Part shown: positions 1 through 56,098 of the stretch, piece by piece | How the letters are laid out: every line of letters begins with the position of its first letter | Position numbering within the stretch: position 1 is the first letter of the stretch | Virus record (IMG/VR): IMGVR_UViG_3300029288_000083 | Coordinates: 30,130-94,129 of that record | Strand: one strand, 5' to 3' | DNA from: a virus | Lineage: Duplodnaviria > Heunggongvirae > Uroviricota > Caudoviricetes | DNA: 64,000 nucleotides | Notes under the pieces: model-generated | The model's database searches: none | What the model saw: the letters and a program-made list of their open reading frames with translations, nothing else | Told to the model about the DNA's origin: nothing | Made by a program: the position numbers and the translations under genes

Positions 1-285
1 TTTCATTTAATTTTTGTTTCTCATTCAACTTTACTAAAATATGGGGATGCATTGCAGCCTCAATCATTGTAACAGTTTCAGATGTATTTGTAAATTCGAT
101 ATTTGTGTTTAAGTGTTTCCAAACAGCATCAGCAAATTCTCTGCCGTACATAGATTTACCAATTTCAACAATTGAGTAAAAATTTGAATAGCCTTTCTCA
201 TGTTCATTTAACAATGATGCGATGAATTCAGCTTTGTTGTATAAGTTAAGAGCCATAATGATATTTTATTTTATGTATTCAATTT

Positions 286-756
286 TTAAAAGTTTCCCCA
301 TGCAACTTGCATGCAAGGAACATTCATTACATCTCGATACGCTTTAACCATTTGGTCTCTATCTTCTAATGCAAACAATACATTATAGAATGGCGCAATA
401 TGCGTATTGTAAATTTCTTCTTTATATTCGCAATCTTTTCGTCTATCAGAATTTTTACGCATATGTAAAATATAATCTGAACCATTAATCCATCCAGTGT
501 ATTTTGCAATCTGCCGTAATGTTACGTCCATAAACTTTTCTTCGCGACCAGTGACAAAGATAATTTCATATCCTGCTTGTTTGAATAACTTCACAGTTTC
601 AACTACTGGCATGTTTGCTGAATCGACAATATCTGCCTTTCCTGCAAAATACGGACTTCTTTTTCCTACGGTTGCAAGCGTACCGTCTATATCACAAATT
701 ATTGCGAGTTTTTTAACTGTTGGTGTTCCTTCCATTTTATTTTGTTTTTCTGTCAC
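286..756 (-). CDS. HAD-superfamily phosphatase (polynucleotide 3'-phosphatase-like)
   Basis: N-terminal DxDGT motif 'ICDIDGTL' typical of HAD phosphatases. It lies adjacent to a P-loop kinase ORF, resembling the two halves of T4 Pnk. Confidence 0.55.
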   Translation of the reverse strand: MTEKQNKMEGTPTVKKLAIICDIDGTLATVGKRSPYFAGKADIVDSANMPVVETVKLFKQAGYEIIFVTGREEKFMDVTLRQIAKYTGWINGSDYILHMRKNSDRRKDCEYKEEIYNTHIAPFYNVLFALEDRDQMVKAYRDVMNVPCMQVAWGNF

Positions 757-964
757 TTAATAATACAAGTAATTGCGATTCGGGACTTGTTGATGTATAT
801 TTTCCCATTTCCACATAGCCTGTTGTTTTATCAACAGCAGTCACACGTTTTTTAATCAATTCGCCATTTGCTGTGTAATCGCGTTTTCTTGCATAATAAA
901 CAGTATCGCCGACTTCAATTTTTACGCCTTCAATGTCTTGAACTAAATGTAATAACTGACTCAT
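737..964 (-). CDS. hypothetical protein (75 aa)
   Basis: ORF in a tight minus-strand gene array. No recognisable motif. Confidence 0.3.
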   Translation of the reverse strand: MSQLLHLVQDIEGVKIEVGDTVYYARKRDYTANGELIKKRVTAVDKTTGYVEMGKYTSTSPESQLLVLLSDRKTK

Positions 965-1293
965 TATAATACTAAATTTAAAGTTACTTCCGTTTTCGCA
1001 TTATCATCGATTCTTCCAATTATAACGCAATTTTTCAGTTCAGTATTTTCTTTTATCTGAATTCCGCCAATTGTACCAAACTCATCTGTTATGCATTCAA
1101 GCAATTTGATGTCCGATATTATTGCGTATTGCGCTGGCCCTTTTCTTTCTTCAATTGCAATCATATTGCCCAATGACAATATTCTTGTAGCCAATCTACG
1201 CGTTGCGGCATTCTTATCTACAGCATCAGTTAAATTTAAAACTAATATGTTTGCTTCGGGATGATGCTTTTGTATTTTTTCTGATATGTCCAT
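964..1293 (-). CDS. hypothetical protein
   Basis: ORF abutting neighbours at 964 and 1296. No motif recognised. Confidence 0.35.
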   Translation of the reverse strand: MDISEKIQKHHPEANILVLNLTDAVDKNAATRRLATRILSLGNMIAIEERKGPAQYAIISDIKLLECITDEFGTIGGIQIKENTELKNCVIIGRIDDNAKTEVTLNLVL

Positions 1294-1295
1294 GA

Positions 1296-1703
1296 TTATC
1301 TTAATTTAATATCGAATCTTTTTTCCATTGCTTCTAATGAAGCTTCAGGAACATTGTGAATATCTTTACCCCCATGTCTGTTTTCAACAACCAATGAAAA
1401 TACAGAATATCCGTATGTTGCTGCCATATCATAATAAGGTTTCATTTCTTTAACAGTAGTTGATGTATTTGAAACAACAACTCTAGGTACACCGCATTTC
1501 ATTAAATTTTCGCATTTGGCTTGACATGATTTATGCGCGTATCCTTGTCTTGCAAGTTCCCATTTGTATTCTCCATCAATCATGTGATAGTCATCAGCGC
1601 AACAAATTACATCAGGATATCCTTTAGCAATTTCTTCGGCAACAGATGATTTACCTGAACCAGGTACACCTCTAACCATGAATAATATTTTTTCTTTGTT
1701 CAT
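1296..1703 (-). CDS. P-loop nucleotide/polynucleotide kinase-like protein
   Basis: Walker A motif 'GVPGSGKSS' near the N-terminus. Size (135 aa) fits an AAA_33/PNK-type kinase domain. Confidence 0.55.
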   Translation of the reverse strand: MNKEKILFMVRGVPGSGKSSVAEEIAKGYPDVICCADDYHMIDGEYKWELARQGYAHKSCQAKCENLMKCGVPRVVVSNTSTTVKEMKPYYDMAATYGYSVFSLVVENRHGGKDIHNVPEASLEAMEKRFDIKLR

Positions 1704-1753
1704 TTTTTTATTTTTAAAATCAAATATACAACATTAATTATGCAATAGCAAAT

Positions 1754-2743
1754 TTAAAGCATTAAAAGTTTTTTATTTGCGTTAACTTTTATTGTTTCAT
1801 ATTCATCTTGCTTATAAACGATATCCATATAATATAATTGTCCTGTTGGCGGTGGAACTTTACAGTTGCAATCAACAGTATTACGAATACGCACCTCAGA
1901 ACATGGATTTACTGTATCTGCTGCTTTTGCTAAATCTTTTACAATATCATCACCTACTGATGCGTGAAATGCACTTTTGCTTGTCGTTTTAATCACATGT
2001 CCAATGTTAGGATTTATTGTTGCAGCAGGTCTGAACTTAATATCGGGATGCTGTACTGCAGATCTTGCAACATCCGCCAAATCGAATAGTTCATCTTTAA
2101 AATTCGATATAACATCGTCAGCTTCTTTAGAAACCTTAAAATCATTCCATGTAGCATTTCCTTTTGATAATACAGCAACAGTTCTTGGCGCAATAAAATA
2201 CGATGATGTATAGTATTCTTTGTTTACGCCAGTATACTTATAGTTTTGTTCAAATTGAACAAGAATACTACTATCTGTCCTTGTGTTTTTTGCATACTTT
2301 CCTGTTGGCGATATTACTTTTCCAATATGGCCAGCTTCACATCCTGTTAATCTAAATGGTGATTTTGATTTCGGAACAGCAAGTCGCATGCCAAAACAAT
2401 TGTTCCACCATTTTTGGGCTTCAGTATGTAATACAACAACATTGTCACCTATAACCGGGTCGCGTTTTTCGATGTGAAAGAAGCTTTCATCTTTAATTAC
2501 GATTTCTTTTATGTGTATAGGAATATGATAAACAGTATTGCCATACATTGTTTTTGCTGCTTCGCTACACGATTGAATCGGAGTTAATGTGCATTGGTTT
2601 TGACCTTCGGCTGTTTTAAAATTGATGATTGCACAAGTAGCATTATTGTTTCTTGTTTCAATTTTAATATCGGTGCATTCTACAAATGTGTTATAAAACC
2701 TGTGATAGTAAGATTCGCCAACTTTTAATAATGTTTCTCTCAT
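1754..2743 (-). CDS. hypothetical protein (329 aa)
   Basis: Long ORF with compact spacing. I looked for RNA-ligase KxDG/KxHG motifs and found none. Confidence 0.4.
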   Translation of the reverse strand: MRETLLKVGESYYHRFYNTFVECTDIKIETRNNNATCAIINFKTAEGQNQCTLTPIQSCSEAAKTMYGNTVYHIPIHIKEIVIKDESFFHIEKRDPVIGDNVVVLHTEAQKWWNNCFGMRLAVPKSKSPFRLTGCEAGHIGKVISPTGKYAKNTRTDSSILVQFEQNYKYTGVNKEYYTSSYFIAPRTVAVLSKGNATWNDFKVSKEADDVISNFKDELFDLADVARSAVQHPDIKFRPAATINPNIGHVIKTTSKSAFHASVGDDIVKDLAKAADTVNPCSEVRIRNTVDCNCKVPPPTGQLYYMDIVYKQDEYETIKVNANKKLLML

Positions 2744-2771
2744 GATTAAAAGTTAAAAATAAAGTTACTGC

Positions 2772-3113
2772 TTAAGCAGTAACTTCTTCGCCAAATAATT
2801 CTTTATATAAAGCTTGTGCTTTTGTTAATCGACGTTCAGCAAGTGTGATATCGTCTTCTGCATCAAGAATTGCATTTGCGTTTAAAGGCAATTTTCTTTT
2901 TGCTGCATCAACTTTGTCATACAATGTATCAAGATTATCTTCAAGATCATTGATTTGTTTTTTCAAATTGATTTTTGAATTTCTTGCTTCTGCAAGCAAA
3001 TTGATTTTTGCGCCATTTTCTGAAGCATCGTTCAAATTCTTTACAAATTGACAGTTTTCATCAATTTTAATTGTGCGCTCACGTTTTCTTGTTTCTTGGT
3101 TTTCTGTTGACAT
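2772..3113 (-). CDS. coiled-coil hypothetical protein
   Basis: Charged sequence with heptad-like repeats (LEDNLDTLYDKVDAAKRKL). Confidence 0.35.
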   Translation of the reverse strand: MSTENQETRKRERTIKIDENCQFVKNLNDASENGAKINLLAEARNSKINLKKQINDLEDNLDTLYDKVDAAKRKLPLNANAILDAEDDITLAERRLTKAQALYKELFGEEVTA

Positions 3114-3192
3114 AACTTTTAGTTTTTTAAGATTATTATTTAGATTTATTGTTTATTATATACATTAGAATTCATTAGTTTTAATTGCAAAT

Positions 3193-3513
3193 TTATTTTA
3201 TGTATTCACCTGCATTATATGATTGTGCTAATGCATTACCTTCTGCAGTATTTCCCATAAGAGTAAGTACTTCACCGTTTGCATCTTTCAAGATTATTGA
3301 AGAATACGTGTTTTCAGTTTCTTTTGCGACAGCAACAACAAGAATCGGTGGCGTTAACTCTATATAAGATTCTACATGCGTTGCAGTTTCCTTTGTTTCA
3401 ACAACTGTTGTTGTTTCGGTTTTTGTTTCTTGGTCTGCGGATTTACAATTACGAGGAGAGCATGACTGAAATACTATAGCACATCCAGTCAAAATTAGAA
3501 ATACTTTTTTCAT
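3193..3513 (-). CDS. putative lipoprotein
   Basis: Signal peptide with lipobox-like 'LILTGCAIVF...SCSP'. Thr/Glu-rich mature part. Confidence 0.45.
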   Translation of the reverse strand: MKKVFLILTGCAIVFQSCSPRNCKSADQETKTETTTVVETKETATHVESYIELTPPILVVAVAKETENTYSSIILKDANGEVLTLMGNTAEGNALAQSYNAGEYIK

Positions 3514-3564
3514 TTATCAATTTATTAATTATTTGTATATTATATACAGAACAAGTAAAAAGTT

Positions 3565-4863
3565 TTAATTATTTTTGATTATTATTTCTTTTATGAAAAC
3601 AACATTTTCAGATTCTATTTTGATAAAATATGTGCCTGAAGGAATATCGGTTTTTCCTAATTCGTATTCTAAACTTTCATTCGTGTTAATATTTGTACTT
3701 AATAAAGTTTGTCCTGTTATGTTTATAAATTTTAATGTTGCAATTCCAACATGTTTATTTACTGTTACTTTTACATTTGGTGATGCTGATGGTATTGGAT
3801 AAACTAAAATGTTAAAATCTAAATCATTTCTATTTATACTTATTATTTTACTATCAACATTTTTACCATCGTAATCTGTTTGTTTCAATTTATAATAGTT
3901 CATGCCTGTTCTGGCGTCATAATCTTTGTATGCGTAATATCGCATAGTTGTTGAATTACCTGCGCCATCAATATCTGAAATATTTTCAAATGATATGCCA
4001 TCGTATGATTTTAAAATTGAAAAGAAATCATTATTTTTTTCTGATGCTGTTGTCCATTCTAAAAATATAAATTCCTTTTGATTCTTTCCAGTAAACTCTA
4101 CAAGTTCGATAGGAAGAACGGACCCACATGATGCACAATTTTGATTTACTGTTGCAGATCCCCACGTGCCTGTTCCGTTAATTGATATACTTGCCGGTGC
4201 ACATATATTCAACCCTGCATTACTTGACAATGGAACTGAACCTGAAATAGTGGTTGATGAAATGTCCAAACACGATTTCCCAATTGGAGTTTGTATTGCA
4301 TTTGTGTTGTTCCCATATTCAATTGTTGATGCATATAATTTGCCGTTACCGCCAAGACAAACACCTGAACCACCATTTTGCACTGTTAATGTCCCAGTGA
4401 CATTTGCTGTGCCATAGTTTGTCAGAACTGAATTTTCAAATAAATTGCCAATTATATTCAATGTTGCTCCGGCTGCATTTTCGATGCGTCCAGAAGAATT
4501 CACAGTCAAACCACTATTAAATGTGACTGTACCCCAATTTACCAAATCAACATTTAATGTTGTCATTGCAGTTGTTAGCGTTGCGCCTGGTAAAACATAA
4601 ATAGTGCCACCGTTAAAGTTTCCTGAAACTGTTAAGTTCCCTGAGCAAACAATGAATATTGAACCTGCCGATGTATTGATGCCGCCTCTTGTTTGTGTTG
4701 TACTGCTATAATACGTTTCCCCAGAATTTATATTAGCATTATCCGATACTAATTGAGTACCGGTACAAGTTGGCATTGCTGGGAGAGAAACACATTGCGA
4801 AATTGCAACATTAATCTTTACGGTTAATGCTATTAAAAAAAATATTCGTAATATGTATCTCAT
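3565..4863 (-). CDS. secreted beta-helix-like protein with T9SS C-terminal sorting domain
   Basis: N-terminal signal peptide (MRYILRIFFLIALTVKINVAISQ). Gly/Thr/Asn-rich repeats (TVSGNFNGGTIYV, NSGLTVNSSG). The C-terminal ~80 aa (LVYPIPSASPNVKVTVNK...GTYFIKIESENVVFIKEIIIKN) match the Por/T9SS CTD pattern. Confidence 0.6.
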   Translation of the reverse strand: MRYILRIFFLIALTVKINVAISQCVSLPAMPTCTGTQLVSDNANINSGETYYSSTTQTRGGINTSAGSIFIVCSGNLTVSGNFNGGTIYVLPGATLTTAMTTLNVDLVNWGTVTFNSGLTVNSSGRIENAAGATLNIIGNLFENSVLTNYGTANVTGTLTVQNGGSGVCLGGNGKLYASTIEYGNNTNAIQTPIGKSCLDISSTTISGSVPLSSNAGLNICAPASISINGTGTWGSATVNQNCASCGSVLPIELVEFTGKNQKEFIFLEWTTASEKNNDFFSILKSYDGISFENISDIDGAGNSTTMRYYAYKDYDARTGMNYYKLKQTDYDGKNVDSKIISINRNDLDFNILVYPIPSASPNVKVTVNKHVGIATLKFINITGQTLLSTNINTNESLEYELGKTDIPSGTYFIKIESENVVFIKEIIIKNN

Positions 4864-4893
4864 AGTGATGTATTATTTTATGTATTATATTAT

Positions 4894-5271
4894 CTATTCT
4901 TTCTTGTGCGGATTTTTTATGTAAGTTATACAAATATTATATACTTGTTCAATTGTGCAATTATCTTTTACAATTGCATTTGCATAATCTGTTCTGAACT
5001 TAACCGCACGCCAAAAATTAGCAGGTTCTGGATTCTTCGCATCGCATTCTTTGTTTGAATGCGTTAATATGTATTGAACTAATTGCATCGTCCAATTCCA
5101 ATCGTCATGAAAATGAAGTTCTTGATGAATGATTCTATTATCGAATAATTTCACGAACGGATTTAAGTTATCAACAAAAACCCATTTTAAACAAATTGAA
5201 TCTTTGCAAGTTACAACTTTTGCGCCAACGAAACGCGCAATCAATTCATTATTTTCTTTATGTGTTTTCAT
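4894..5271 (-). CDS. hypothetical protein
   Basis: ORF only. Confidence 0.35.
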   Translation of the reverse strand: MKTHKENNELIARFVGAKVVTCKDSICLKWVFVDNLNPFVKLFDNRIIHQELHFHDDWNWTMQLVQYILTHSNKECDAKNPEPANFWRAVKFRTDYANAIVKDNCTIEQVYNICITYIKNPHKKE

Positions 5272-5272
5272 A

Positions 5273-5794
5273 TTAGCAAATTAATAATTTTTTATTCTGT
5301 GTTGGTTTAAAGCATGTCTCGTAATTTTTCGTATGTTGTTCTTGAATATTTACATTACGATCTTTTAATATTCTTATTATATCGAATGATAAACTACCAT
5401 GCATATGCAATCTTTTTCGATTTGTTTCAACGCCATAAACAAATTCGTGTTCGCAAATAAAATTGTTAGCATCTATTGAATATGTAATGCCGCTTAATGG
5501 CACGCCGCTTATTGCATACGCATTAAGTTCTGTTTCTGTCGGATGAATAATGGCGTCTTCAGACTTTGACGATATGATGCTTATTTTATCATGCCGTCTT
5601 TTCAAATTTTTGTATAATACTGAACTTGTATTTAGTTTTGTTTTTGCATCTGTAATCTGTTCAATTGAAATATGCGTGCCATCACGGTACACATGCTTGC
5701 ATATAATATCATACGGATTGATTGAATACGTTACTCCATTAACAGGATTGTCAACGCTATGCGATATATCATATAGATTAATTTCATTTTTCAT
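5273..5794 (-). CDS. hypothetical protein with internal duplication
   Basis: Two internal repeats (GVTYSINPYDIICKHVYRDG / GITYSIDANNFICEHEFVYG). Confidence 0.4.
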   Translation of the reverse strand: MKNEINLYDISHSVDNPVNGVTYSINPYDIICKHVYRDGTHISIEQITDAKTKLNTSSVLYKNLKRRHDKISIISSKSEDAIIHPTETELNAYAISGVPLSGITYSIDANNFICEHEFVYGVETNRKRLHMHGSLSFDIIRILKDRNVNIQEQHTKNYETCFKPTQNKKLLIC

Positions 5795-6024
5795 TGTTCG
5801 CAGATTAATAGTACTTTTTTATTTGTCGGAAGTATTTCTTTATTGAATTGCGATTTTGCTCGCATGCTGCCTAATGTAACTGCTGGATTTTTTTCAAGAA
5901 AATCTTTCAAATGATTTTTCTTGTTATACGCAAACCATATGTCACCAAGATCTTCGCCACTTAATTTGTATAATGGTCTTCCTGACTTGGTTAGAACCCA
6001 ATCATCGTTTGTTTCGTTTTTCAT
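5791..6024 (-). CDS. hypothetical protein
   Basis: ORF overlapping the upstream gene by 4 nt. Confidence 0.3.
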   Translation of the reverse strand: MKNETNDDWVLTKSGRPLYKLSGEDLGDIWFAYNKKNHLKDFLEKNPAVTLGSMRAKSQFNKEILPTNKKVLLICEQ

Positions 6025-6348
6025 ATCAATTACAAATTAATAGTATGTTATTTGAAGACGGCTTAATTGCTTCATTTTCAATTGCAATATTATCCCATCT
6101 TTTATAGAATTCTTCGGTGAATTTTATATCAAGCATTACGTATTCACGAAGCTTTTCATATTGCTCAGGATCCATTTTATGCATGACGTTTTTTCTTGAT
6201 TGTTGAATACTTCTTTTTTAAACTTTTTGCAAATGCAATTATGTCATCTGCAATTTCTTCTCGTTCACCGTGCGGTTTATCACTAAGCAATTCTTCAATT
6301 TCTTCTACTGCACGTTTTCCTGCTAGATAATCAATGTCCATTCCCATA

Positions 6349-6826
6349 TCAAATAATTTTAAAAGTTTTTGTTTCCATTACAGGCCACCAATATTTACCG
6401 CCATTGTAACCTTTATCTTCTGGCCATTTTTGTTCATAATACTCTGGTAGTTTTTCGATTAATCTTGCTCGATGCGCTCTATGAAAATTTTCGTTTCCTA
6501 ACCACCAAGGCATATCAATCGGTGCCATACCAATGTTCCCATGATTCAAGTCTTGTATAAATTCTGGTGTCCATTCAAAAAAAAAGTGGCATTGTATTTT
6601 TATAGCCTCTTGATGTCCATTCCTTTATTGTAAAATCATGATACACTTTTAATGCATCGATGCATCCTTCCCATGCTTTAACAGCAGGATGGTTTTGCCA
6701 ACTTACTTTATTGCCTTCAAGTACATTAATGATTTGTTTATTTTCAATTCTTTGTTTTCCTAATCTGCGATAATCTAAAGCAGCAACGGATTCAATAAAA
6801 GACGGATATGGTAAAAATGTTTGCAT
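6349..6826 (-). pseudogene. denV-like pyrimidine-dimer DNA glycosylase (Pyr_excise family), frameshifted into two ORFs
   Basis: ORF 6575..6826 (…LDYRRLGKQRIENKQIINVL…WQNHPAVKAWEG…) and ORF 6349..6549 (…PWWLGNENFHRAHRARLIEKLPEYY) resemble the N- and C-terminal parts of endonuclease-V/denV-like proteins. They are separated at an A9 homopolymer (6583-6591). Confidence 0.45.
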
Positions 6827-6924
6827 ATAATATTATTTTTATATTATATACAGAACTATTTTATAGTTTTCATACAATGTCTTTATCTCTATTGTTATTT
6901 TAGATATAGTTGTTATTGTCAAAA

Positions 6925-6972
6925 CTAAAAAAGTTCACTGGATGCAAATTAATGTATATCCAGTGAACTTTA
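6925..6972 (-). terminator. rho-independent terminator downstream of the PARP gene
   Basis: 12-bp perfect stem agttcactggat / atccagtgaact. An A6 run on plus gives a U-run on the minus transcript. Confidence 0.55.
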
Positions 6973-6992
6973 CTTTATGTTATTTGAATTTA

Positions 6993-8291
6993 TTAATTTG
7001 CGATTTCAATAATGTATTTTACTGTTACTTGAGCAGCATCATAAACAATGAATTCATCATTTCTTAAATCGGCGCCGCCATGAGCATATACAGAATCAAA
7101 TCCTTCACGTGCAAGTTTTTGTTTGTTCAATGTGTAGCAATCAGAATTGTGATGTGTTATATTTTTTTGATTACCTACATGAAAATCAAATAATGCAAGA
7201 TATGCAGAACTTGATGACCCGCCTGACCAACATGCACCACGAAGAGATGTATAGCCAATTGATTTTTGAGCTTTATTTGCACCGTAAATACCATCGCCAA
7301 ACATTGAACCCGTATGAACCGCACCAGATGGACGAATTAATAAACCTGATTGTAAAATGTTGAACCAGTTTTCATTTCGTGAACCATGCCAAAATAATTC
7401 GCATTTTTTATCTTTTGCATTTGCAACATATGCATCAAACTTTTCTTGTGTTTTTCTGTTTGTAACACGGAATGCAGAACGGAATTGATTTGCATTCGGT
7501 CCCATCATTTTTTTGATGATTTCGATTTCTTGCGCATTTGCTTCAACCGCCTCAAGTCCAAGTGTTTGCAACATGTCCATAGATTTCTTATGGCCTTCAG
7601 CATCAGGTTTATTTGCTTTCGCTTGTTCTTTTTGCTTGCGAAGTAATTCAACTTGACCTGCCATTGTATCAAGAACCGCTTGTTCATCAGCCATCAATTT
7701 ATGAGCGCGTTTTGTATCAGCGTCAGATTTGAAACTTGATAATAAATGGTCTCGTACATTTGACATTTTACGAGGAATGATTGAATAAAGTTTCAATAAG
7801 TTATTATTGATACCTTCAAGATGCGCAGATTTCTCTGTTAGAATTTTTGAAAGTGTATCAATAATTTTTTGAGCTTCATCAACCATAGCTTGGGTTACTT
7901 CACTTTGCGTAACCGTATAGTTTTCTTGTACCGTCTTTTTAGCATAAGCCATCAATTTGTCGAATAATGCTTTAACTGCACGATTTTGAATTTCCGCTTG
8001 TGTGACAGTTTCACCATTTGCTTCAGCATCAGCAGTTACTTCCGCAATTGCTTCTTTGAACAAATGTGTCATATCCTCATAGCCTTTTTTTGTTTTGCTG
8101 CGGTAAATTTTATCCCACTCATGCGCAGAATATTCGTGTGTAACTTCGGTACCTTTAATACGTCCGTATTGCACGATAAAATTACCTGATGCTTGTTCGA
8201 ACATATTGTAATACTTGTTGTTATTATCTGCGGTAACGCAAACTAATTTAACAACTTTTTTTCCTGGAACTGTATAATCTTTTAATTGCAT
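6993..8291 (-). CDS. poly(ADP-ribose) polymerase-like protein (WGR domain + PARP catalytic domain)
   Basis: N-terminal WGR-like segment (YYNMFEQASGNFIVQYGRIKG). The C-terminus has PARP catalytic signatures in order: 'FWHGSRNENWFNILQSGLLI' (His-Gly-Ser), 'GSMFGDGIYGANKAQKSIGYTS' (Tyr) and 'NDEFIVYDAAQVTVKYIIEI' (catalytic Glu, cf. PARP1 '[20 protein letters not shown]'). Confidence 0.8.
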   Translation of the reverse strand: MQLKDYTVPGKKVVKLVCVTADNNNKYYNMFEQASGNFIVQYGRIKGTEVTHEYSAHEWDKIYRSKTKKGYEDMTHLFKEAIAEVTADAEANGETVTQAEIQNRAVKALFDKLMAYAKKTVQENYTVTQSEVTQAMVDEAQKIIDTLSKILTEKSAHLEGINNNLLKLYSIIPRKMSNVRDHLLSSFKSDADTKRAHKLMADEQAVLDTMAGQVELLRKQKEQAKANKPDAEGHKKSMDMLQTLGLEAVEANAQEIEIIKKMMGPNANQFRSAFRVTNRKTQEKFDAYVANAKDKKCELFWHGSRNENWFNILQSGLLIRPSGAVHTGSMFGDGIYGANKAQKSIGYTSLRGACWSGGSSSSAYLALFDFHVGNQKNITHHNSDCYTLNKQKLAREGFDSVYAHGGADLRNDEFIVYDAAQVTVKYIIEIAN

Positions 8292-8309
8292 ATCTGTAAT
8301 TTATTTTGA

Positions 8310-8849
8310 TTATTGTCTGCAAGCACGTACGTCATGTAAATGAATTCCTGTGAATGCGCGATAAGCGATTCGAACATCGTCCCTTGTGTATGTTGATGGG
8401 AACCAATAAACAGTTTGTGAAGTTACAGAATAAGCTTTCCAAGAACCGGTTGTTACAAGATTTGCGTTTGCAAATGATACAATAACTTTTCCTGAGCGAG
8501 TTGTGTGAGATCTGCCAGTTGCTACAGATGCAGGAACAATTTGATTTGCATTTGATGGTTGGCCAGCAGCAGCACGAAGAGATTGCGTTGTAGATTGATT
8601 TGCAGTTGTTGGTTGAGCAACAGATTGACCTTTTGAATCTGTGTACACACGGTGAACACCGTTATACGAGAATGAATAATTTTCTTCGGCACAAACCTGA
8701 ATCATTAAATCAGATACATCCGCTTGTTTTGCGAAGAATCCACGAACTCGTAATTCATTTTTGATGTCGAGAGTGGTTGTTGAACCATTTGTTTCGATTA
8801 AATCCGATGCAACATCGAATACGTCTGCTTTTGTAAGTGTCTTTGACAT
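8310..8849 (-). CDS. hypothetical protein
   Basis: ORF. Low-complexity Ser/Thr/Gln-rich middle. Confidence 0.35.
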   Translation of the reverse strand: MSKTLTKADVFDVASDLIETNGSTTTLDIKNELRVRGFFAKQADVSDLMIQVCAEENYSFSYNGVHRVYTDSKGQSVAQPTTANQSTTQSLRAAAGQPSNANQIVPASVATGRSHTTRSGKVIVSFANANLVTTGSWKAYSVTSQTVYWFPSTYTRDDVRIAYRAFTGIHLHDVRACRQ

Positions 8850-8921
8850 AGTTTAGATTTTTTTAAGTTTAACTTTTAGAACTTTTAGATTTTCTATTTC
8901 AATTTATTATATACACAAGAA

Positions 8922-16933: not shown

Positions 16934-17452
16934 TCATTTTCTTTTATCTGTTAAATTTAAGAACATTCGCATTTCGCCTTGTGATTTGAATTCTCTATGT
17001 TTTTCAATACATTTATTTTGAACTTTATCAAACTCTATGAATTTTATAATTCCTTGAGAAAATGGATAATCGCTATACACAATACTTACATCAACATCAA
17101 ATTTATTAGATAACGCTCCAAGTTCGGAATACACTTCTAATTGTTCTTTATGTCCATTTGATATTTTTTCATTTCCATGTTTGTATTCGATGATTCTCAA
17201 TTTACGAGAATTTCTGCTATATAAAGATAAATCAATATTTACCATTGATATGTTACGAACATTTGCTTCATCAGCAAATTTATTCAATGGTGACCCAAAA
17301 TTATGTCGTTCCGCTGTTGTCATGTTGTCGATATCAGCAGGATTCATTTCAACATATAATTTAGATAGTTCATCAACTAAAAATTGTTTATTACCTTTTG
17401 AACGACTAATAAGATTTAAAATCCTATTAGTAAACATTTTTTCATTTAGCAT
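16934..17452 (-). CDS. hypothetical protein
   Basis: ORF only. Confidence 0.35.
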   Translation of the reverse strand: MLNEKMFTNRILNLISRSKGNKQFLVDELSKLYVEMNPADIDNMTTAERHNFGSPLNKFADEANVRNISMVNIDLSLYSRNSRKLRIIEYKHGNEKISNGHKEQLEVYSELGALSNKFDVDVSIVYSDYPFSQGIIKFIEFDKVQNKCIEKHREFKSQGEMRMFLNLTDKRK

Positions 17453-18015
17453 TCTGTATTTTTTAATTCGTCTTCAATCAATTTTGCAATTTCAATAGCA
17501 GTATCTCGGTCTGCATCTAAATCCTTGAATTTTATGTTATTCTCAATTAATAAATTTCTTATGATAACTGATAACTCATTACTTTCTTCTTCTGTTTGAT
17601 TACGTCCGTTTGGATTGTAGTCTTTTGTTCTATTAAGAAAAATATTTAATGTCCAATACAAACCGTCTGCTGCAATTACAACTTTTTCTAACGCATCATT
17701 AAAAATTGTTTGTTTCGGATTATCGTTTGTGTTGTATAAACGATTATAAACAGTATTTAATAAAATAGGACTGTCTGTTATCACAACTTCAACTTTACCG
17801 TTTACTCTAAAAATCCTGTGGTGCTGTTTTCCTAACAAATATAATTGGTCTGTCATTGTGTGATGACGTTTCTCCCATACCAATTCTTTTGCAAATTCAG
17901 GAACCATTTCAGAATCAATTTTATCCCACTTTAATGCAGCAAAAGTTTCTGCCATTAATGTTGATTTGCCTGTTCCTGGTGCACCATATAAATTTACGAT
18001 TAATGTCTTTTTCAT
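17446..18015 (-). CDS. P-loop NTPase/kinase-like protein
   Basis: Walker A 'LYGAPGTGKSTL' at the N-terminus. Confidence 0.5.
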   Translation of the reverse strand: MKKTLIVNLYGAPGTGKSTLMAETFAALKWDKIDSEMVPEFAKELVWEKRHHTMTDQLYLLGKQHHRIFRVNGKVEVVITDSPILLNTVYNRLYNTNDNPKQTIFNDALEKVVIAADGLYWTLNIFLNRTKDYNPNGRNQTEEESNELSVIIRNLLIENNIKFKDLDADRDTAIEIAKLIEDELKNTEC

Positions 18016-18018
18016 ATT

Positions 18019-18567
18019 TTAAAAATTAACGTAATAACCGTATTTCTTGTTGCCATAAATTAATTTCAATGATGGATAACGTTCAGTCATGTTTTCGATT
18101 GTTAAATCATCTTGAATATGAATTTCGTGTGTATTGCCGTATGCAATACCTTGTACATAAGAATATGGAACAGCAACTAAACATTTTTGACCTTTTGAAT
18201 TCATTTCATCAATAATTCTTGTTGCATCTTCAATTGTTAAGTGTTCAAGAATGTCACCAAAAATTAAAAATTCGTATTCTGAAAAATCGAAATCAACAAT
18301 GTTAGAATGCGTCACCTTATTATAAATTTCAGATAACTTGTATTTGATAATGTATTTTTCAAACACTTCACAAGCATCAAGTTTATAAGGTGCAAGTAAT
18401 TTCGCGTACGTTCCTTTTCCTGGACCAACGTCTAGAATTTTAGTAATGTTATTTTTTTCAAACGTGTCAATTAAATATTCCTTGACTTGTTTTTTGTATG
18501 ATCCGTAACTTTGCGGCATATTAAAAAATTTAAAGATTAATGTATAACTATTAATTATTATATACAT
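18019..18567 (-). CDS. class I SAM-dependent methyltransferase
   Basis: Motif I 'ILDVGPGKGTYA' and motif 'FLIFGDILEHL'. Confidence 0.6.
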   Translation of the reverse strand: MYIIINSYTLIFKFFNMPQSYGSYKKQVKEYLIDTFEKNNITKILDVGPGKGTYAKLLAPYKLDACEVFEKYIIKYKLSEIYNKVTHSNIVDFDFSEYEFLIFGDILEHLTIEDATRIIDEMNSKGQKCLVAVPYSYVQGIAYGNTHEIHIQDDLTIENMTERYPSLKLIYGNKKYGYYVNF

Positions 18568-18586
18568 TACTAAACTATAGTTTTTG

Positions 18587-18667
18587 TAACCCCTGAGAGA
18601 CTCGAACTCTCACGTCTTTCGACACCGCATCCTAAGTGCGGCGCGTCTACCATTCCGCCAAGGGGCC
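18587..18667 (-). tRNA. tRNA, class II (tentative Leu-TAG)
   Basis: T-arm 'gagagactcgaactctc'. Anticodon arm ccgca/tcctaag/tgcgg. Confidence 0.6.
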
Positions 18668-18816
18668 ATTAGTTAAACAATTCGATTCCTCGATTTTCCC
18701 AGTTCGACCTGGGCCGTTGCATTGCTTGACCTATGCTTTACATTTGTTCCGTCAAGAACAAACAGCTTTAGTCCGAGGAGAAAGCGGCCACTCCGTTCTA
18801 CCTTTTGAATTGTTTG

Positions 18817-18897
18817 TGACCATGAGAGGACTCGAACCTCCACCCCTTTCGGGAGATGCTTCTTAGACACCCGCGTATACCATTCCGCCACATGGCC
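18817..18897 (-). tRNA. tRNA (class II, anticodon unresolved)
   Basis: T-arm 'gaggactcgaacctc'. Acceptor gaccatg/catggcc. Confidence 0.55.
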
Positions 18898-18908
18898 ATT
18901 TTATGTTG

Positions 18909-18980
18909 CTGTCCTTTCAAGATTCGAACTTGAACTACCTGAGTCAAAGTCAGGTGTGTTAACCATTACACTAAAGGACA
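18909..18980 (-). tRNA. tRNA (tentative Gln-TTG)
   Basis: Perfect acceptor tgtcctt/aaggaca. T-arm tcaag/attcgaa/cttga. Anticodon loop CTTTGAC. Confidence 0.65.
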
Positions 18981-18985
18981 ATATG

Positions 18986-19072
18986 TAGCTCAGGTCGGAG
19001 TCGAACCGACACGGACATTTCTGTCCAAAGGATTTTAAGTCCTTCGCGTACTACCAATTTCGCCACTGAGCC
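18986..19072 (-). tRNA. tRNA, class II (tentative Leu-TAA)
   Basis: T-arm gtcgg/agtcgaa/ccgac. Anticodon arm aagga/ttttaag/tcctt. Long variable arm. Confidence 0.6.
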
Positions 19073-19077
19073 AAATG

Positions 19078-19160
19078 TAGCCGGAACGGGACTCGAACCC
19101 GTACGCCCGATGGGCACCGCCTTTTAAGGACGGCGTGTCTACCAGTTCCACCATCCGGCC
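19078..19160 (-). tRNA. tRNA, class II
   Basis: T-arm acggg/actcgaa/cccgt. Acceptor gccggaa/atccggc. Confidence 0.55.
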
Positions 19161-19171
19161 ATTTGTACTTG

Positions 19172-19242
19172 TTGTCCATCAAGGATTCGAACCTTGAAAT
19201 TCAGCTCCAAAAACTGACGTGTTACCATTACACCAATGGACA
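19172..19242 (-). tRNA. tRNA
   Basis: T-arm caagg/attcgaa/ccttg. Acceptor tgtccat/atggaca. Confidence 0.6.
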
Positions 19243-19252
19243 ATATTTTAGA

Positions 19253-19322
19253 TGCCCGTTAAGGATTCGAACCTTAAACGACAGAATCAAAATCTGTAGT
19301 GTTACCGTTACACCAACGGGCA
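19253..19322 (-). tRNA. tRNA (tentative Gln-TTG, second copy)
   Basis: Acceptor tgcccgt/acgggca. Anticodon arm acaga/atcaaaa/tctgt. Confidence 0.6.
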
Positions 19323-19384
19323 ATTTATTTTCAAATATAAACCATTATGAAATGAATAGCAATGGTTTATGAATTAATTTAAAC

Positions 19385-19418
19385 TAAAAAAGCTCGGTCA
19401 ATTTGATTTGACCGAGCT
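19385..19418 (-). terminator. rho-independent terminator
   Basis: 10-bp stem gctcggtcaa/ttgaccgagc preceded by A6 on plus. Confidence 0.5.
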
Positions 19419-19672
19419 CTAAGTATTATAAGATAAATGAAAGTTTACATAATACAGAATCGGCCACAACTTCGTAGTTGTAGTAATTGCAATTGCTGTA
19501 ATAATATGTTAACTGAATTTTTCATTTTAATTTATTCTTTATTGATTTGAATTATTTTATAATTATATACACGAGTTTTAAATAGTTTCAAATTATTTTT
19601 ACCTTTGTGAATTAAATTATTTTTATTATATATTCACGAAGTTTAAAAAGTTTTACACAATTTTAATATTCT

Positions 19673-20341
19673 TTATAAATGTTTAAATCCTGTTTCATCT
19701 AACCAAGTTTTTAAATTTGGTATGCTAGTTCCGTTATAATCTGTACGTGTTGAAAACATGCCAGCGCCATGAGCAGTCATATCTATAATTTTGTTATTCT
19801 TTGTTAAGACTGTCATCCAAATGTTATTCGATAAACTCGGTGTCTCTCCGTGTTTTCGCATAAATGGTTCGTATAATGTGTATGCACCTATTGTGTATGA
19901 TTTGTTACTGATATCTAGCATAAAACTTGTGGACAATATTTTTTCTACTTCTTTCGGCATATTCTTATGCGATTCCGGAATCTCCAATACTTCTGCTAAA
20001 CGTTTTCCCATTTCTAATGGGTTATCGCGTTTATTACATTGAAGACAACCTCTGCTTCCTCTTCTATCTATAGAATAACTAATAAATATTTGGTCATATT
20101 GAATATTGAATCCTATTTCGTTTATTCTATCTTTATCACTGTAAAGAACATCACCTTCTGCATCTATACCAACGTATTGTAATTTCGGAACAGCAGTGGC
20201 CATTACACTTAACACAAAATCAATTGAATCATCTGTTAAATTAAATCTATTCTTATTATGAACAAAGAAGTTCTTTGCTTCGTCAAACGCGCCAGCGCTT
20301 TCGTTCAAGAAATCGTCAAACATGGGTATTCGGTTTTTCAT
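19673..20341 (-). CDS. paralog family member 1 (N-terminal 'IPMFDDFLNES' motif)
   Basis: Shares its N-terminal motif with three tandem neighbours. Confidence 0.45.
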   Translation of the reverse strand: MKNRIPMFDDFLNESAGAFDEAKNFFVHNKNRFNLTDDSIDFVLSVMATAVPKLQYVGIDAEGDVLYSDKDRINEIGFNIQYDQIFISYSIDRRGSRGCLQCNKRDNPLEMGKRLAEVLEIPESHKNMPKEVEKILSTSFMLDISNKSYTIGAYTLYEPFMRKHGETPSLSNNIWMTVLTKNNKIIDMTAHGAGMFSTRTDYNGTSIPNLKTWLDETGFKHL

Positions 20342-25228: not shown

Positions 25229-25984
25229 TTAAAATTTCATTTTTCTTCCTTTATGCCACCCCAAAGGAATTTCATCTTCTTTTTTAATTTTTTTATTTTG
25301 TTTCAATTCTGAATTGTGAATCCACATAGAACCGTATTGTGATGATTCTTTGCCAACATATCTTGCTTTTAATTTATCTGATATTTTTTTCTTCGTTGAT
25401 TCAGTATGCAAAATATCTTTCCGTATTCCTGTATACTTGTCAGAATTTATAAATTCATCCACTGTTATTCTTTTCATTACACCAAATTCATCTCGCACAA
25501 CAACTGTTCCTTTTGTGTGATGCTGCAATATGCCATTCAAATATAAATCATTTTTTGTTTCAATATAATGGCATACGCCATTATCATCTCTTGCATATAC
25601 ATATCCAATATTTCCTTTCGTTGCACCAATAAGTTCGCCGGCTAAGTATCTGGCGTCATGTATTGAAACTTGATATATTTTTCCATTTGCATCTTTTACA
25701 GTTGCTGTGCCAACTGTGTGAAATCCCTTATTAGGAATATAGTAATTTTCATTTAGAGGATCATCAATGAACTTTGCAATTTCGTCTGATTCAAACTTTA
25801 TTGCATCCTCTCTGCAAATAAAGTCATCCTTAAGTATTTCTTTTTTCAATTTTGTTTTGTCTGGTTTCCATACAGACATTGAACCTAAATAATTATCTAA
25901 TCTAGGATGAACTTTAGAACTTCTTGAACCTATATAGAATTGTTTTGTTTCTATATGTTCAATTCGATATACGTAATGATGCAT
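25229..25984 (-). CDS. GIY-YIG homing endonuclease
   Basis: 'YVYRIEHIETKQFYIGSRS' (GIY…YIG). C-terminal NUMOD-like 'WIHNSELKQNKKIKKEDEIPLGWHKGRKMKF' is shared with 40648..41295. Confidence 0.7.
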   Translation of the reverse strand: MHHYVYRIEHIETKQFYIGSRSSKVHPRLDNYLGSMSVWKPDKTKLKKEILKDDFICREDAIKFESDEIAKFIDDPLNENYYIPNKGFHTVGTATVKDANGKIYQVSIHDARYLAGELIGATKGNIGYVYARDDNGVCHYIETKNDLYLNGILQHHTKGTVVVRDEFGVMKRITVDEFINSDKYTGIRKDILHTESTKKKISDKLKARYVGKESSQYGSMWIHNSELKQNKKIKKEDEIPLGWHKGRKMKF

Positions 25985-26488: not shown

Positions 26489-27067
26489 TTATATTTTTCT
26501 TTTATATGCATTTGCTTCAATTTTTGGCAAATGACGTTTCATCCAATCTCTAGTTTTTTGCGGCGTCATTTCAATAATTTCAGCAACCCTTTTGCACCAC
26601 CCAAATTCTTCAAAGTTTATATTTCCGTTTATAACCTTTTCTTTCAATTCTTCTATTGCGTCTTTCTTTTTTTGTTCTGATAAAAAACGTACCGTCTTGT
26701 AATATTTTTTTCTATATTCACGTGTCGAATTTTTATTTGCGCCTTTATACGTTGCAGTTAAAGAATGACAGTTTGGACAAAGAACTCTTAAATTATCAAT
26801 ACTGTTATTAATAGGATTCCCGTCAATATGATCTATTTCTAAAGGAATCTTGTTTGTATATTCATTAACTTCATGCCAACCACACATCGAACATTTATTA
26901 TCTGCATTAGATAAGATCCAACGTCTAGCCGGACTTGTGATTTTTCGTTCATATGCATCAAGTTCAAGCCATTTTTGCAATAGCATGTTACTGAAGTATT
27001 CTGCTTGACATTTATTATCACAAAATTTATTGCCTTTAATTTCTTTTCCGCAATTGATACATTCCAT
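26489..27067 (-). CDS. HNH endonuclease
   Basis: 'CSMCGWHEVNEYTNKIPLEIDHIDGNPINNSIDNLRVLCPNCH' is a classic HNH. C-terminal DNA-binding-like tail is shared with 23279..23971. Confidence 0.6.
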   Translation of the reverse strand: MECINCGKEIKGNKFCDNKCQAEYFSNMLLQKWLELDAYERKITSPARRWILSNADNKCSMCGWHEVNEYTNKIPLEIDHIDGNPINNSIDNLRVLCPNCHSLTATYKGANKNSTREYRKKYYKTVRFLSEQKKKDAIEELKEKVINGNINFEEFGWCKRVAEIIEMTPQKTRDWMKRHLPKIEANAYKRKI

Positions 27068-36852: not shown

Positions 36853-37263
36853 TTAAATAAAAGATTTTTTCACTAGTTCACTTGCAACTTTACCGTCGTA
36901 TTGACCTGTATAATTTGATGTTAAATACGACATTATTTTACCCATGTCTTTCATTGAACTATATGAATTATCTTTAATTTGTTTTTCGATAATTTTTTGT
37001 AATTCTGATTCGTTTAACATTTTCGGCAAATAACATTCAAGATATATATTTTCATCAGTTACATTACATTCAATATTTGATGATATTAACTTTTTGATAA
37101 TAACTTGCACTTCTGTATCTGAAACAATTGGTGATTCACGTTTTGGTTCTTTTGATTTTTTATCAACTTCAGAAAGTAATGTCGATAAAACATTTTTTTG
37201 AACAGAATTTCCTTGTTTCATTGCCGTCATACGGTCAGTTGCAATTGTTTCCTTGAGTGTCAT
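36853..37263 (-). CDS. GatB/YqeY domain protein
   Basis: Matches the YqeY pattern along its whole length: 'LKETIATDRMTAMKQGN…VLSTLLSEV…E…D.EV…I.K…CYLPKMLNESELQKIIEKQIKDN…SMKDMGKIMSYL…DGKVASELVKK'. Confidence 0.65.
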   Translation of the reverse strand: MTLKETIATDRMTAMKQGNSVQKNVLSTLLSEVDKKSKEPKRESPIVSDTEVQVIIKKLISSNIECNVTDENIYLECYLPKMLNESELQKIIEKQIKDNSYSSMKDMGKIMSYLTSNYTGQYDGKVASELVKKSFI

Positions 37264-37284
37264 TGTTTTTAATTTAATTGTTAT

Positions 37285-37318
37285 TTATATACAGAACTTT
37301 TTAATAGTTTCAATTTTA
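37285..37318 (-). promoter_or_regulatory. class-1 conserved intergenic motif (phage-specific promoter candidate), representative copy
   Basis: Plus 'ttatatacagaactttttaatagtttca'. On minus this reads TGAAACTATTAAAAAGTTCTGTATATAA. About 17 copies just upstream of minus-strand gene starts, including 3537-3565, 6820-6855, 8885-8935, 14350-14380, 14595-14635, 19560-19595, 19625-19660, 29610-29645, 30140-30170, 33905-33940, 34975-35010, 35085-35115, 42745-42785, 42835-42870 and 59835-59870. Confidence 0.45.
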
Positions 37319-44586: not shown

Positions 44587-44602
44587 TTAGAATTTATTTT
44601 TA

Positions 44603-56092: not shown

Positions 56093-56098
56093 GATATT

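What the first reader, a model, noticed from the sequence alone, without database searches (positions are those of the whole stretch)
3565..4863. Phage gene for a secreted beta-helix-like protein carrying a type IX secretion C-terminal sorting domain
The product has a cleavable signal peptide, Gly/Asn/Thr-rich repeats (TVSGNFNGGTIYV…) suggestive of a right-handed beta-helix or adhesin fold, and an ~80-aa C-terminus matching the Por/T9SS CTD pattern (…VYPIPSASPNV…GTYFIKIESENVVFIKEIIIKN). T9SS cargo is specific to Bacteroidota. A phage encoding its own T9SS-routed surface protein could remodel the host surface for superinfection exclusion, gliding or adhesion changes, or dispersal.
Basis: partly seen in the sequence, partly recalled or inferred. 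Interest (0 to 1): 0.6.

Follow-up and report, generated by a model that had tools for sequence, protein, structure and literature searches.

The report
Huge-phage gene for a T9SS-exported beta-helix protein
A very large phage of Bacteroidota carries a gene for a small adhesin-like protein with all the signals needed for export by the host's type IX secretion system.

Summary
ORF 3565-4863 (minus strand, 432 aa) has four parts:
- a Sec signal peptide that obeys the Bacteroidetes Q-rule;
- an FN3-like spacer;
- a type A T9SS C-terminal domain (TIGR04183 32.9 bits against a cut-off of 23; PF18962 28.6 against 27).

The family profile also matches the NucA CTD solved inside the Flavobacterium translocon (E 6e-7).

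The window is phage. It has 50 tRNA genes, tail-fibre, sigma-factor and homing-endonuclease genes. It shares protein similarity with the 462-kb phage LR756500.1. The source contig is up to 425 kb.

The beta-helix has no conserved charged residue, so it is most likely a binding or coat protein and not an enzyme. The passenger family is small (102 clusters among 1.84 billion representatives) and nearly always ends in a CTD. Copies in phage context form one clade nested among chromosomal Bacteroidota copies.

Novelty is limited. Phage T9SS cargo was reported in 2019 and 2020, and NCBI already names this protein. Its biological role (surface remodelling or superinfection exclusion) is untested.

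The parts
3565..4863 (-). Complete gene, 432 codons plus stop (stop codon 3565-3567)
   Evidence: ORF list. It is 100% identical to P0001 = NCBI MCK9574640.1 / MFA5722702.1, on 13 contigs, with places shown from four samples.
4798..4863 (-). Sec (SPase I) signal peptide, aa 1-22, with predicted cleavage AIS|QC that exposes Gln (Bacteroidetes Q-rule)
   Evidence: Sequence inspection and a hydropathy screen. Q sits immediately before the conserved Cys24 in nearly all family members. AF2 gives helix 2-16 with low pLDDT. The Q-rule is described in PMC5837995. No SignalP run was possible.
4126..4794 (-). Passenger domain, aa 24-246: a right-handed parallel beta-helix, Thr/Gly/Asn/Ser-rich. It has 8 Cys; five are conserved in 15/16 family members and two (C33, C246) are invariant. 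No charged residue is conserved.
3829..4116 (-). FN3-like beta-sandwich spacer, aa 250-345 (LPIEL..W.T.SE.NND.F...S.DG..F...GAGNS..Y.Y.D...YYKLKQTDYDG)
3574..3804 (-). Type A T9SS C-terminal sorting domain (CTD), aa 354-430
   Evidence: TIGR04183 32.9 bits against 23. PF18962 28.6 bits against 27. The family profile matches 8glk_D, the NucA CTD in the SprA/PorV translocon, at E 5.8e-7. Seven predicted strands. YP[IN]P 355-358, G384, G410-x-Y412 and K425 are conserved.
6844..6852 (-). Nearest upstream copy of the over-represented intergenic motif TGTATATAA, a probable phage promoter element. It is the inferred start of the transcription unit that ends with this gene.
   Evidence: The motif occurs 17 times against 1.8 expected, and 16 of 17 copies are on the gene strand. 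It is enriched upstream of ORFs. Its assignment to this gene is an inference only.

Best explanation
The gene is a phage-borne member of a small, Bacteroidota-specific family of type IX secretion cargo proteins.

Shown by sequence or model:
- a Sec signal peptide with the Bacteroidetes Q-rule;
- a ~220-aa disulfide-rich right-handed beta-helix passenger;
- an FN3-like spacer;
- a canonical type A CTD at the extreme C-terminus.

Inferred from what is established for type A cargo (Lauber 2024, PMC10994853): during infection the pre-protein crosses the inner membrane through Sec. It folds and forms disulfides in the periplasm. PorV/SprA of the host translocon then recognise its CTD. After export it is either released or, after CTD removal, linked to surface lipopolysaccharide.

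The passenger has no conserved acidic, basic or His residue, and its closest folds are self-associating or adhesive beta-helices. It therefore most likely acts as a binding or coat protein on the infected cell surface and not as an enzyme.

The most plausible benefit to the phage is speculative: alteration of the host surface, through masking of receptors against superinfection or through changed adhesion, aggregation or gliding.

The gene appears to have been captured once from a cellular Bacteroidota genome and kept in a lineage of large phages.
For: - CTD: with the 7-strand model.
- Signal peptide and Q-rule; literature.
- Beta-helix fold, adhesin-like neighbours.
- No N-domain column has a D/E/K/R/H majority in at least 10 of 16 sequences; only 11 of 223 residues are charged; the Cys residues are conserved.
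- Family architecture is fixed. There are 102 representative clusters, mostly 400-480 aa. At least 72 of the 100 fetched carry a CTD within 12 residues of the C-terminus.
- All 80 best cellular loci are Bacteroidota.
- Phage identity of the window: 50 tRNAs; tail-fibre, exonuclease, sigma-factor, HNH and PARP PHROGs; 39-46% protein matches to huge phage LR756500.1, and PARP matches to Cellulophaga phages; source contigs of 379-425 kb.
- Phage clade: P0001, P0002, P0004, P0005 and P0008 all lie in phage-like contexts. P0011, P0017 and P0121 lie in bacterial chromosomal contexts. The NJ tree groups the phage-context sequences.
- The protein is invariant on contigs from four samples whose upstream gene content differs.
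Against: - No expression, localisation or secretion data exist.
- The host is unknown, so the presence of a T9SS in it is inferred only from the CTD, the Q-rule and the Bacteroidota-only homologues.
- The Pfam score is only 1.6 bits above its threshold.
- CTD pLDDT is moderate (66-84).
- Released or LPS-anchored fate cannot be told from sequence.
- The role for the phage is pure inference.
- The tree is a simple NJ tree of 16 sequences without support values. Contexts of P0003 and P0006 were not checked.
- The related phage LR756500.1 carries a different passenger on the same FN3+CTD module, so this particular passenger is not universal in the lineage.
Confidence: 0.72

Rival explanations
1. 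It is a virion component, a tailspike or fibre-like receptor-binding protein. On this reading the FN3-like and C-terminal sandwiches are Ig-like decoration domains and not a secretion signal.
Against: - The family has a conserved Sec signal peptide with the Q-rule and conserved cysteines, features that fit exported proteins and not proteins assembled in the cytoplasm.
- The tailspike matches have rmsd of 10-17 A, against 2.8 A for the adhesins.
- Homologues sit in ordinary bacterial chromosomal contexts.
- The gene lies about 40 kb from the tail-fibre cluster, among auxiliary genes.
- The CTD passes curated thresholds and matches a translocon-bound CTD.
Confidence: 0.07
2. It is a secreted polysaccharide lyase or depolymerase, an enzymatic auxiliary gene like the glycoside hydrolases of Cryophage.
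Against: No acidic, basic or His residue is conserved anywhere in the passenger, and only 11 of 223 residues are charged. There is no Pfam, NCBIfam or PHROG enzyme family hit. The helix is short, and its best superpositions are with non-enzymatic adhesins.
Confidence: 0.05
3. It is a recently captured host gene that is carried passively and has no role in the phage life cycle.
For: Cellular homologues exist at 35-39% identity. The gene lies in a variable accessory region. Two phage-context homologues lie near IS605/TnpB genes.
Against: The phage-context copies form their own clade, at 44-56% identity to the window protein. Signal peptide, cysteines, FN3-like domain and CTD are all intact in that clade. 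This implies long retention under constraint. The protein is identical across strain variants whose neighbouring genes differ.
Confidence: 0.1
4. The contig is not a phage but a cellular or plasmid fragment, so this is an ordinary bacterial T9SS cargo gene.
For: NCBI bins the contig in MAGs labelled Pacearchaeota and Clostridia. There is no nucleotide match to known phages. The two largest ORFs have no phage homologue. The sequence is not in IMG/VR. No capsid or terminase gene lies within the window.
Against: - There are 50 co-oriented tRNA genes in 25 kb, interspersed with homing endonucleases.
- Genes are near-unidirectional, 92 of 107 on one strand.
- Tail-fibre PHROGs are present.
- Protein matches to the curated huge phage LR756500.1 occur at several loci.
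- The two MAG labels are mutually inconsistent and neither is Bacteroidota, which is what a mis-binned phage contig would look like.
Confidence: 0.03

Closest known systems
Type A T9SS cargo proteins of Bacteroidota (for example F. johnsoniae NucA and RemZ, P. gingivalis RgpB; TIGR04183 / PF18962)
   Same: Sec signal peptide, a passenger, an Ig/FN3-like spacer and a ~75-aa 7-strand CTD at the extreme C-terminus with the conserved near-terminal Lys. The family profile aligns end to end with the NucA CTD solved in the translocon.
   Different: It is encoded by a phage and not by the cell. The passenger is an uncharacterised beta-helix family with no Pfam model. Secretion has not been shown.
Phage-encoded T9SS cargo genes already reported: 'Cryophage' endoglucanase, GH39 and PA14 proteins (PMC7468147), and T9SS-sorting-domain ORFs of gut phages with BACON repeats (PMC6949934)
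   Same: A type A sorting domain on a phage-encoded protein. The hypothesis is also the same: hijacking of the host T9SS, and possibly superinfection or competition effects.
   Different: The passenger here is non-enzymatic and adhesin-like. The carrier is a huge phage (425-kb contig). The passenger family has a distinct phage clade.
The 369-aa ORF of huge phage LR756500.1 (record 36880-37989) and similar ORFs on IMG/VR contigs of 150-510 kb
   Same: Signal peptide, a Cys/Gly/Asn-rich N-domain, the same FN3-like domain and TIGR04183 (32.7 bits). It lies about 6 kb from a PARP gene that is 46% identical to the window's PARP.
   Different: Only the FN3+CTD module aligns (29% identity). The N-domains are not detectably homologous.
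Self-associating autotransporter adhesins (TibA 4q1q, Ag43 7kob) and other beta-helical adhesins (HMW1, tapirins, Candida Awp)
   Different: Sequence identity is only 12-19%. Export is through a T9SS CTD and not through a T5SS barrel or TPS partner. Membership of those families is not claimed.
Phage-encoded envelope proteins that block superinfection (for example T5 Llp, lambda-family Cor; from my own knowledge, not tested here)
   Same: The proposed logic is the same: a phage-encoded exported protein changes the surface of the infected cell.
   Different: There is no sequence or fold relation. Those are small lipoproteins or inner-membrane proteins. The function here is only hypothesised.

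Membership tests
T9SS type A CTD cargo (TIGR04183 / PF18962) | CTD profile HMM score above the curated cut-off | tested here: met
   TIGR04183 32.9 bits against 23, full profile 1-72. PF18962 28.6 bits against 27. 15 of 16 family members hit PF18962 at E <= 0.1, a looser test than Pfam's gathering score.
T9SS type A CTD cargo (TIGR04183 / PF18962) | CTD located at the extreme C-terminus | tested here: met
   aa 354-430 of 432.
T9SS type A CTD cargo (TIGR04183 / PF18962) | N-terminal Sec signal peptide for the first, inner-membrane step | tested here: met
   n/h/c regions are present, with A at -3, S at -1 and Q at +1. It is the top hydropathy score among window ORFs and is conserved in the family. 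No SignalP run, so this rests on a heuristic.
T9SS type A CTD cargo (TIGR04183 / PF18962) | 7-stranded beta-sandwich fold of the CTD | tested here: met
   The AF2 model has 7 strands between aa 352 and 429, with pLDDT 66-84. Foldseek matches tandem FN3-like sandwiches and PorU 6za2.
T9SS type A CTD cargo (TIGR04183 / PF18962) | Near-invariant Lys close to the C-terminus and the fold-defining motifs (PMC10994853) | tested here: met
   K425 is present in 11 of 16 members. YP[IN]P 355-358, invariant G384 and G410-x-Y412 are present. The profile aligns with the NucA CTD including ...IKKIII.
T9SS type A CTD cargo (TIGR04183 / PF18962) | Producer cell has a T9SS (SprA/Sov, PorV, PorU, GldKLMN) | not testable with these tools
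   The host is unknown. The only evidence is indirect: all 80 best cellular relatives are Bacteroidota, the Q-rule applies, and the PARP gene matches Cellulophaga phages.
T9SS type A CTD cargo (TIGR04183 / PF18962) | T9SS-dependent export and CTD cleavage demonstrated | not testable with these tools
   This needs an experiment.
Pectate-lyase-like enzymatic beta-helices and phage depolymerases | Conserved catalytic acidic or basic residues on the helix face | tested here: not met
   No N-domain column has a D/E/K/R/H majority in at least 10 of 16 sequences. No enzyme family hit.
Right-handed parallel beta-helix fold (adhesin type) | Fold match to solved beta-helices | tested here: met
Type V autotransporter / TPS adhesins | C-terminal beta-barrel translocator or TPS secretion domain | tested here: not met
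   The C-terminus is FN3-like plus a T9SS CTD, and there is no autotransporter family hit. The resemblance is in passenger fold only.
Huge phage (over 200 kb) of Bacteroidota | Phage hallmark genes, a large tRNA complement, a genome over 200 kb, and relatives among curated huge phages | tested here: met
   50 tRNAs. Tail-fibre, sigma-factor, exonuclease and HNH PHROGs. Contigs of 379 and 425 kb carry the identical gene. Protein matches of 39-46% to LR756500.1. No capsid, portal or terminase gene was seen, because only 64 kb is available.

The most novel reading that the evidence does not exclude
Large phages of Bacteroidota routinely use the host type IX secretion system to display their own proteins on the infected cell. 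This beta-helix protein would be a phage-specific surface coat or adhesin that blocks superinfection or switches off gliding and adhesion. A related, virus-enriched class of secreted proteins carries the same FN3-like domain but ends in a ~40-aa tail that may be an undescribed minimal sorting signal.
Probability: 0.25. Interest if true: 0.65.

Novelty: new member of a known kind. Interest (0 to 1): 0.38.

Why it matters
T9SS-exported surface proteins are, from my own knowledge of the literature (not checked here), linked to gliding, adhesion and phage sensitivity in Bacteroidota. A phage that sends its own cargo through the T9SS could change how infected cells move, stick together or resist other phages.

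The case gives three concrete handles. There is a small, well-defined passenger family with a distinct phage clade. There is a high-confidence structural model. There is also evidence that CTD-bearing proteins recur on viral contigs of 150-510 kb (L094, L104, L122, L127, L135, L136, L153, L160).

It also gives an independent host-phylum marker (CTD plus Q-rule) for a 425-kb phage contig that public databases currently assign to an archaeon and to a Clostridia MAG.

The concept itself is already in the literature, and no function has been shown. It is therefore a solid example and not a discovery.

Tried and rejected
- Megablast of window 1-20000 against phages found no match.
- tblastn of the 1221-aa and 751-aa ORFs against phages found no match.
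- PHROGs has no family for the target.
- An IMG/VR scan with the single protein found nothing. An exact 48-mer of the gene is not in IMG/VR.
- The search for homologous proteins with the N-domain alone returned nothing, not even the protein itself. I read this as a limit of the word index on this low-complexity composition. The exhaustive HMMER search did find the family.
- Sigma-70-type promoter and terminator scans around the gene were not above the shuffled expectation.
- The motif ATAATATAMA is not enriched. TGTATATAA is enriched.
- My own CTD HMM found no second CTD protein in the 64-kb window, and no short-tail protein either.
- An enzymatic reading of the beta-helix was rejected because no charged residues are conserved.
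- hhalign of the viral short tail against my CTD alignment gave probability 4%, so the tail cannot be called a truncated CTD.
- Literature searches for the accession numbers (LR756500, SRR and MCK ids) found nothing, so the sampled environment is unknown.
- dN/dS was not computed, because the nearest distinct homologue is 56% identical and synonymous sites would be saturated.

Full report
**Observation.** The window has an ATG-initiated ORF at 3565..4863 on the minus strand, encoding 432 aa. The frame opens only three codons upstream of the ATG, so the N-terminus is not in doubt. NCBIfam TIGR04183 (Por_Secre_tail, 'T9SS type A sorting domain') scores 32.9 bits against a curated cut-off of 23. 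It covers the whole profile (1-72 of 72) at aa 354-430, two residues from the C-terminus. Pfam PF18962 scores 28.6 bits against a gathering score of 27. PHROGs has no family for the protein.

**Anatomy.** An alignment of 16 full-length homologues (A1) and an AlphaFold2 model built on it (mean pLDDT 81.8) resolve four parts.

1. aa 1-22 form a signal peptide, MRYILR / IFFLIALTV / KINVAIS|QC. The Gln before the conserved Cys24 recurs in nearly all members. This is the 'Q-rule' that is specific to signal-peptidase-I substrates of Bacteroidetes (PMC5837995). The rule has already been noted for proteins of Porphyromonas phages (PMC10367356). A simple hydropathy screen found only three window ORFs with signal-like N-termini, and this one scored highest.
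3. aa 250-345 form an FN3-like sandwich.
4. aa 354-430 form the CTD. It is predicted as seven strands, the fold described for T9SS CTDs (PMC10994853). The profile of A1 matches PDB chain 8glk_D end to end at E 5.8e-7. That chain is 'Endonuclease I', 75 residues, and 8GLK is cited only in the T9SS translocon paper, which models a NucA substrate complex; I take the chain to be the NucA CTD captured in the SprA/PorV translocon. The profile also matches the CTD of a GH167 enzyme (E 6.8e-7). The fold-defining positions are conserved: YP[IN]P 355-358, invariant G384 and G410-x-Y412. So is the near-terminal Lys (K425, 11 of 16) that Lauber et al. single out as nearly invariant.

**Is it a phage?** There is no nucleotide match to known phages, and the two largest ORFs have no phage homologue. 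The window carries no capsid or terminase gene. The following evidence still supports a phage:
- There are 50 tRNA genes, all on the gene strand, within 25 kb. They are interspersed with HNH and other homing endonucleases. Huge phages are reported to carry up to 67 tRNAs (PMC7162821).
- 92 of 107 ORFs are on one strand.
- PHROG hits include tail-fibre proteins (44128-45807 and 51016-52344), a phage exonuclease, a sigma factor and a PARP family.
- Three parts of the window match the curated 462-kb 'uncultured phage' LR756500.1: the PARP at 46% identity (E 4e-93), ORFs 55063-57636 at 39.5% (E 3e-46), and the FN3+CTD module of the target itself.
- After LR756500.1, the best PARP matches are Cellulophaga phages, whose host is a flavobacterium.
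- The identical protein is on record on 13 contigs of up to 379 and 425 kb, with places shown from four samples. NCBI has it in MAGs labelled Pacearchaeota and Clostridia. Those two labels contradict each other and the Bacteroidota signals, as expected for a mis-binned phage contig.

**The family and its history.** An exhaustive HMMER search with the passenger alone found only 102 clusters among 1.84 billion representatives. Almost all are 400-480 aa with the passenger at the same position. At least 72 of 100 end in a CTD by my own HMM, and about a dozen more have one slightly further from the end. This is therefore a small, architecturally fixed T9SS cargo family.

In species-representative genomes, all 80 best loci are Bacteroidota. 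Full-length matches occur in Flavobacteriales, Chitinophagales and Saprospiraceae MAGs at 35-38% identity.

Context look-ups split the family cleanly:
- P0001, P0002, P0004, P0005 and P0008 are 44-56% identical to the window protein. They sit among dense small hypothetical genes with PIF1 helicase, PhageMetallopep, DNA polymerase A, YopX, DUF932 and thioredoxin.
- P0011, P0017 and P0121 are 31-39% identical. They sit beside TonB-dependent receptors, PFOR, methylmalonyl-CoA mutase, OmpA and other T9SS cargos.

In a neighbour-joining tree, the phage-context sequences form one clade nested among the cellular ones. The simplest reading is a single capture from a Bacteroidota genome followed by long retention. 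Signal peptide, cysteines, spacer and CTD are all intact across the phage clade. The protein is also invariant between strain variants whose upstream genes differ, one set carrying PARP and the other DUF7487.

**Mechanism.** What is shown: the four sequence and structure modules, and membership of the type A CTD family by every feature that can be tested in silico. What is inferred from the established pathway (PMC10994853): Sec export, periplasmic folding, recognition of the CTD by PorV/SprA, and then release or attachment to surface lipopolysaccharide. What is speculative: the benefit to the phage.

The passenger resembles self-associating or substrate-binding adhesins and has no catalytic signature. 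I therefore favour a surface-coat or adhesin role that changes receptor accessibility, aggregation or gliding of the infected cell.

The gene lies in an accessory region with PARP, a denV-like Pyr_excise gene, PNK-like, NADAR and RNase HII genes. It lies about 40 kb from the tail-fibre genes. It is probably transcribed from a promoter class marked by TGTATATAA, which occurs 17 times against 1.8 expected, with 16 of 17 copies on the gene strand. The nearest upstream copy is at 6844-6852.

**Rivals.**
- A virion receptor-binding protein is unlikely, because of the conserved signal peptide and cysteines, the cellular homologues, and the poor superposition on tailspikes.
- A secreted depolymerase is unlikely, because no charged residue is conserved.
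- A passively carried host gene is unlikely, because of the conserved phage clade.
- A non-phage origin of the contig is unlikely for the reasons given above.

**Comparison with what is known, and novelty.**
- Phage-encoded proteins with T9SS sorting domains were noted in gut phage contigs in 2019 (PMC6949934).
- They were described explicitly as phage-encoded T9SS cargo in 'Cryophage' in 2020, with the same hypothesis of hijacking the host system and possible superinfection effects (PMC7468147).
- Al-Shayeb et al. wrote that huge phages encode proteins predicted to reach the membrane or cell surface, and that these may affect susceptibility to other phages (PMC7162821).
- NCBI's pipeline already names this exact protein.
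- LR756500.1 has an unannotated 369-aa ORF with the same FN3+CTD module (TIGR04183 32.7 bits). LR756504.1 has another ORF that matches my own CTD HMM.
- 16 of the 80 best IMG/VR loci carry CTD proteins by my own HMM. Eight of these are on contigs of 150-510 kb, and two were confirmed with TIGR04183.

This case adds the following: a non-enzymatic beta-helix passenger, a defined family with a phage clade, and a good model. I rate it a new member of a known kind and of moderate interest.

**Side observation.** Of the 80 best IMG/VR loci with the FN3-like domain, 63 end in a conserved ~40-aa tail and not in a CTD. The tail consensus is ...KKIIKIINLLGQEVDENYKGLVIIIYSDGSVEKIIKE. These proteins also have Q-rule signal peptides. 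The tail does not reach TIGR04183 and is not significantly similar to my CTD profile. It occurs in the Bacteroidetes-infecting genomes LR745206.1 and LR756502.1. It was absent from all 80 best cellular loci, although that set is biased towards CTD-bearing hits. It remains unexplained.

Noticed in passing
IMG/VR loci L093, L097, L099, L106, L107, L111, L116, L118, L125, L128 and others (63 of L092-L171); also L174 (LR756502.1), L176 (LR745206.1) and P0063: Secreted proteins on viral contigs have a Q-rule signal peptide and carry the same FN3-like domain as the target. They end in a conserved ~40-aa tail (consensus KKIIKIINLLGQEVDENYKGLVIIIYSDGSVEKIIKE) where the target has a T9SS CTD. The tail does not hit TIGR04183. 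It was found in 0 of the 80 best cellular Bacteroidota loci, a set biased towards CTD-bearing hits. It may be a virus-enriched sorting signal or mini-domain.
   Followed up: partly
window 16458-41755: There are 50 tRNA genes, all on the minus strand, many of them duplicated and three with odd anticodon loops. GIY-YIG-like (inferred from sequence only) and HNH homing-endonuclease ORFs lie between them (for example 25229-25984, 26489-27067, 40648-41295).
   Followed up: partly
window, 17 sites, for example 3156-3164, 3540-3548, 6844-6852, 8907-8915, 14359-14367: The motif TGTATATAA occurs 17 times against 1.8 expected. 16 of 17 copies are on the gene strand, and most lie in intergenic DNA upstream of ORFs. 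It is probably a phage promoter element resembling an extended -10.
   Followed up: partly
window 3193-3513 (-): The ORF immediately downstream of the target (106 aa, MKKVFLILTGCAIVFQSC...) has a lipoprotein-like signal sequence and its own TGTATATAA motif. Its only family hit is weak and confined to the signal region (PG1828 family lipoprotein, 23 bits against a cut-off of 50). With the target it forms a pair of adjacent exported proteins. The pairing is not conserved in the related phage contigs.
   Followed up: partly
window 6993-8291 (-), 12895-13458 (-), 286-756 and 1296-1703 (-), 6575-6826 (-): An accessory cluster holds a PARP-like ADP-ribosyltransferase (46% identical to LR756500.1, 28% to Cellulophaga phages), a NADAR domain protein, PNK-like kinase and phosphatase ORFs, and a denV-like Pyr_excise gene. 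This may relate to defence, counter-defence or DNA and RNA repair.
   Followed up: partly
window 31205-32788 (-): A 527-aa SPFH/Band 7 (flotillin-like) protein is encoded by the phage (PF01145, 98.9 bits). It is followed by a small membrane protein.
   Followed up: no
window 42001-44000: GC content drops locally to 0.25, against about 0.33 elsewhere.
   Followed up: no
NCBI records MCK9574640.1 and MFA5722702.1 (source contig up to 425 kb): The identical protein, and hence the contig, is deposited in MAGs labelled Candidatus Pacearchaeota archaeon and Clostridia bacterium. Both labels are almost certainly binning errors for a phage of Bacteroidota.
   Followed up: partly
L010 16451-17534 and L172 9842-11080: IS605 OrfB/TnpB (Cas12f-like) genes lie near the homologous T9SS cargo gene on two phage-like contigs. 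This hints at local mobility in that region.
   Followed up: no
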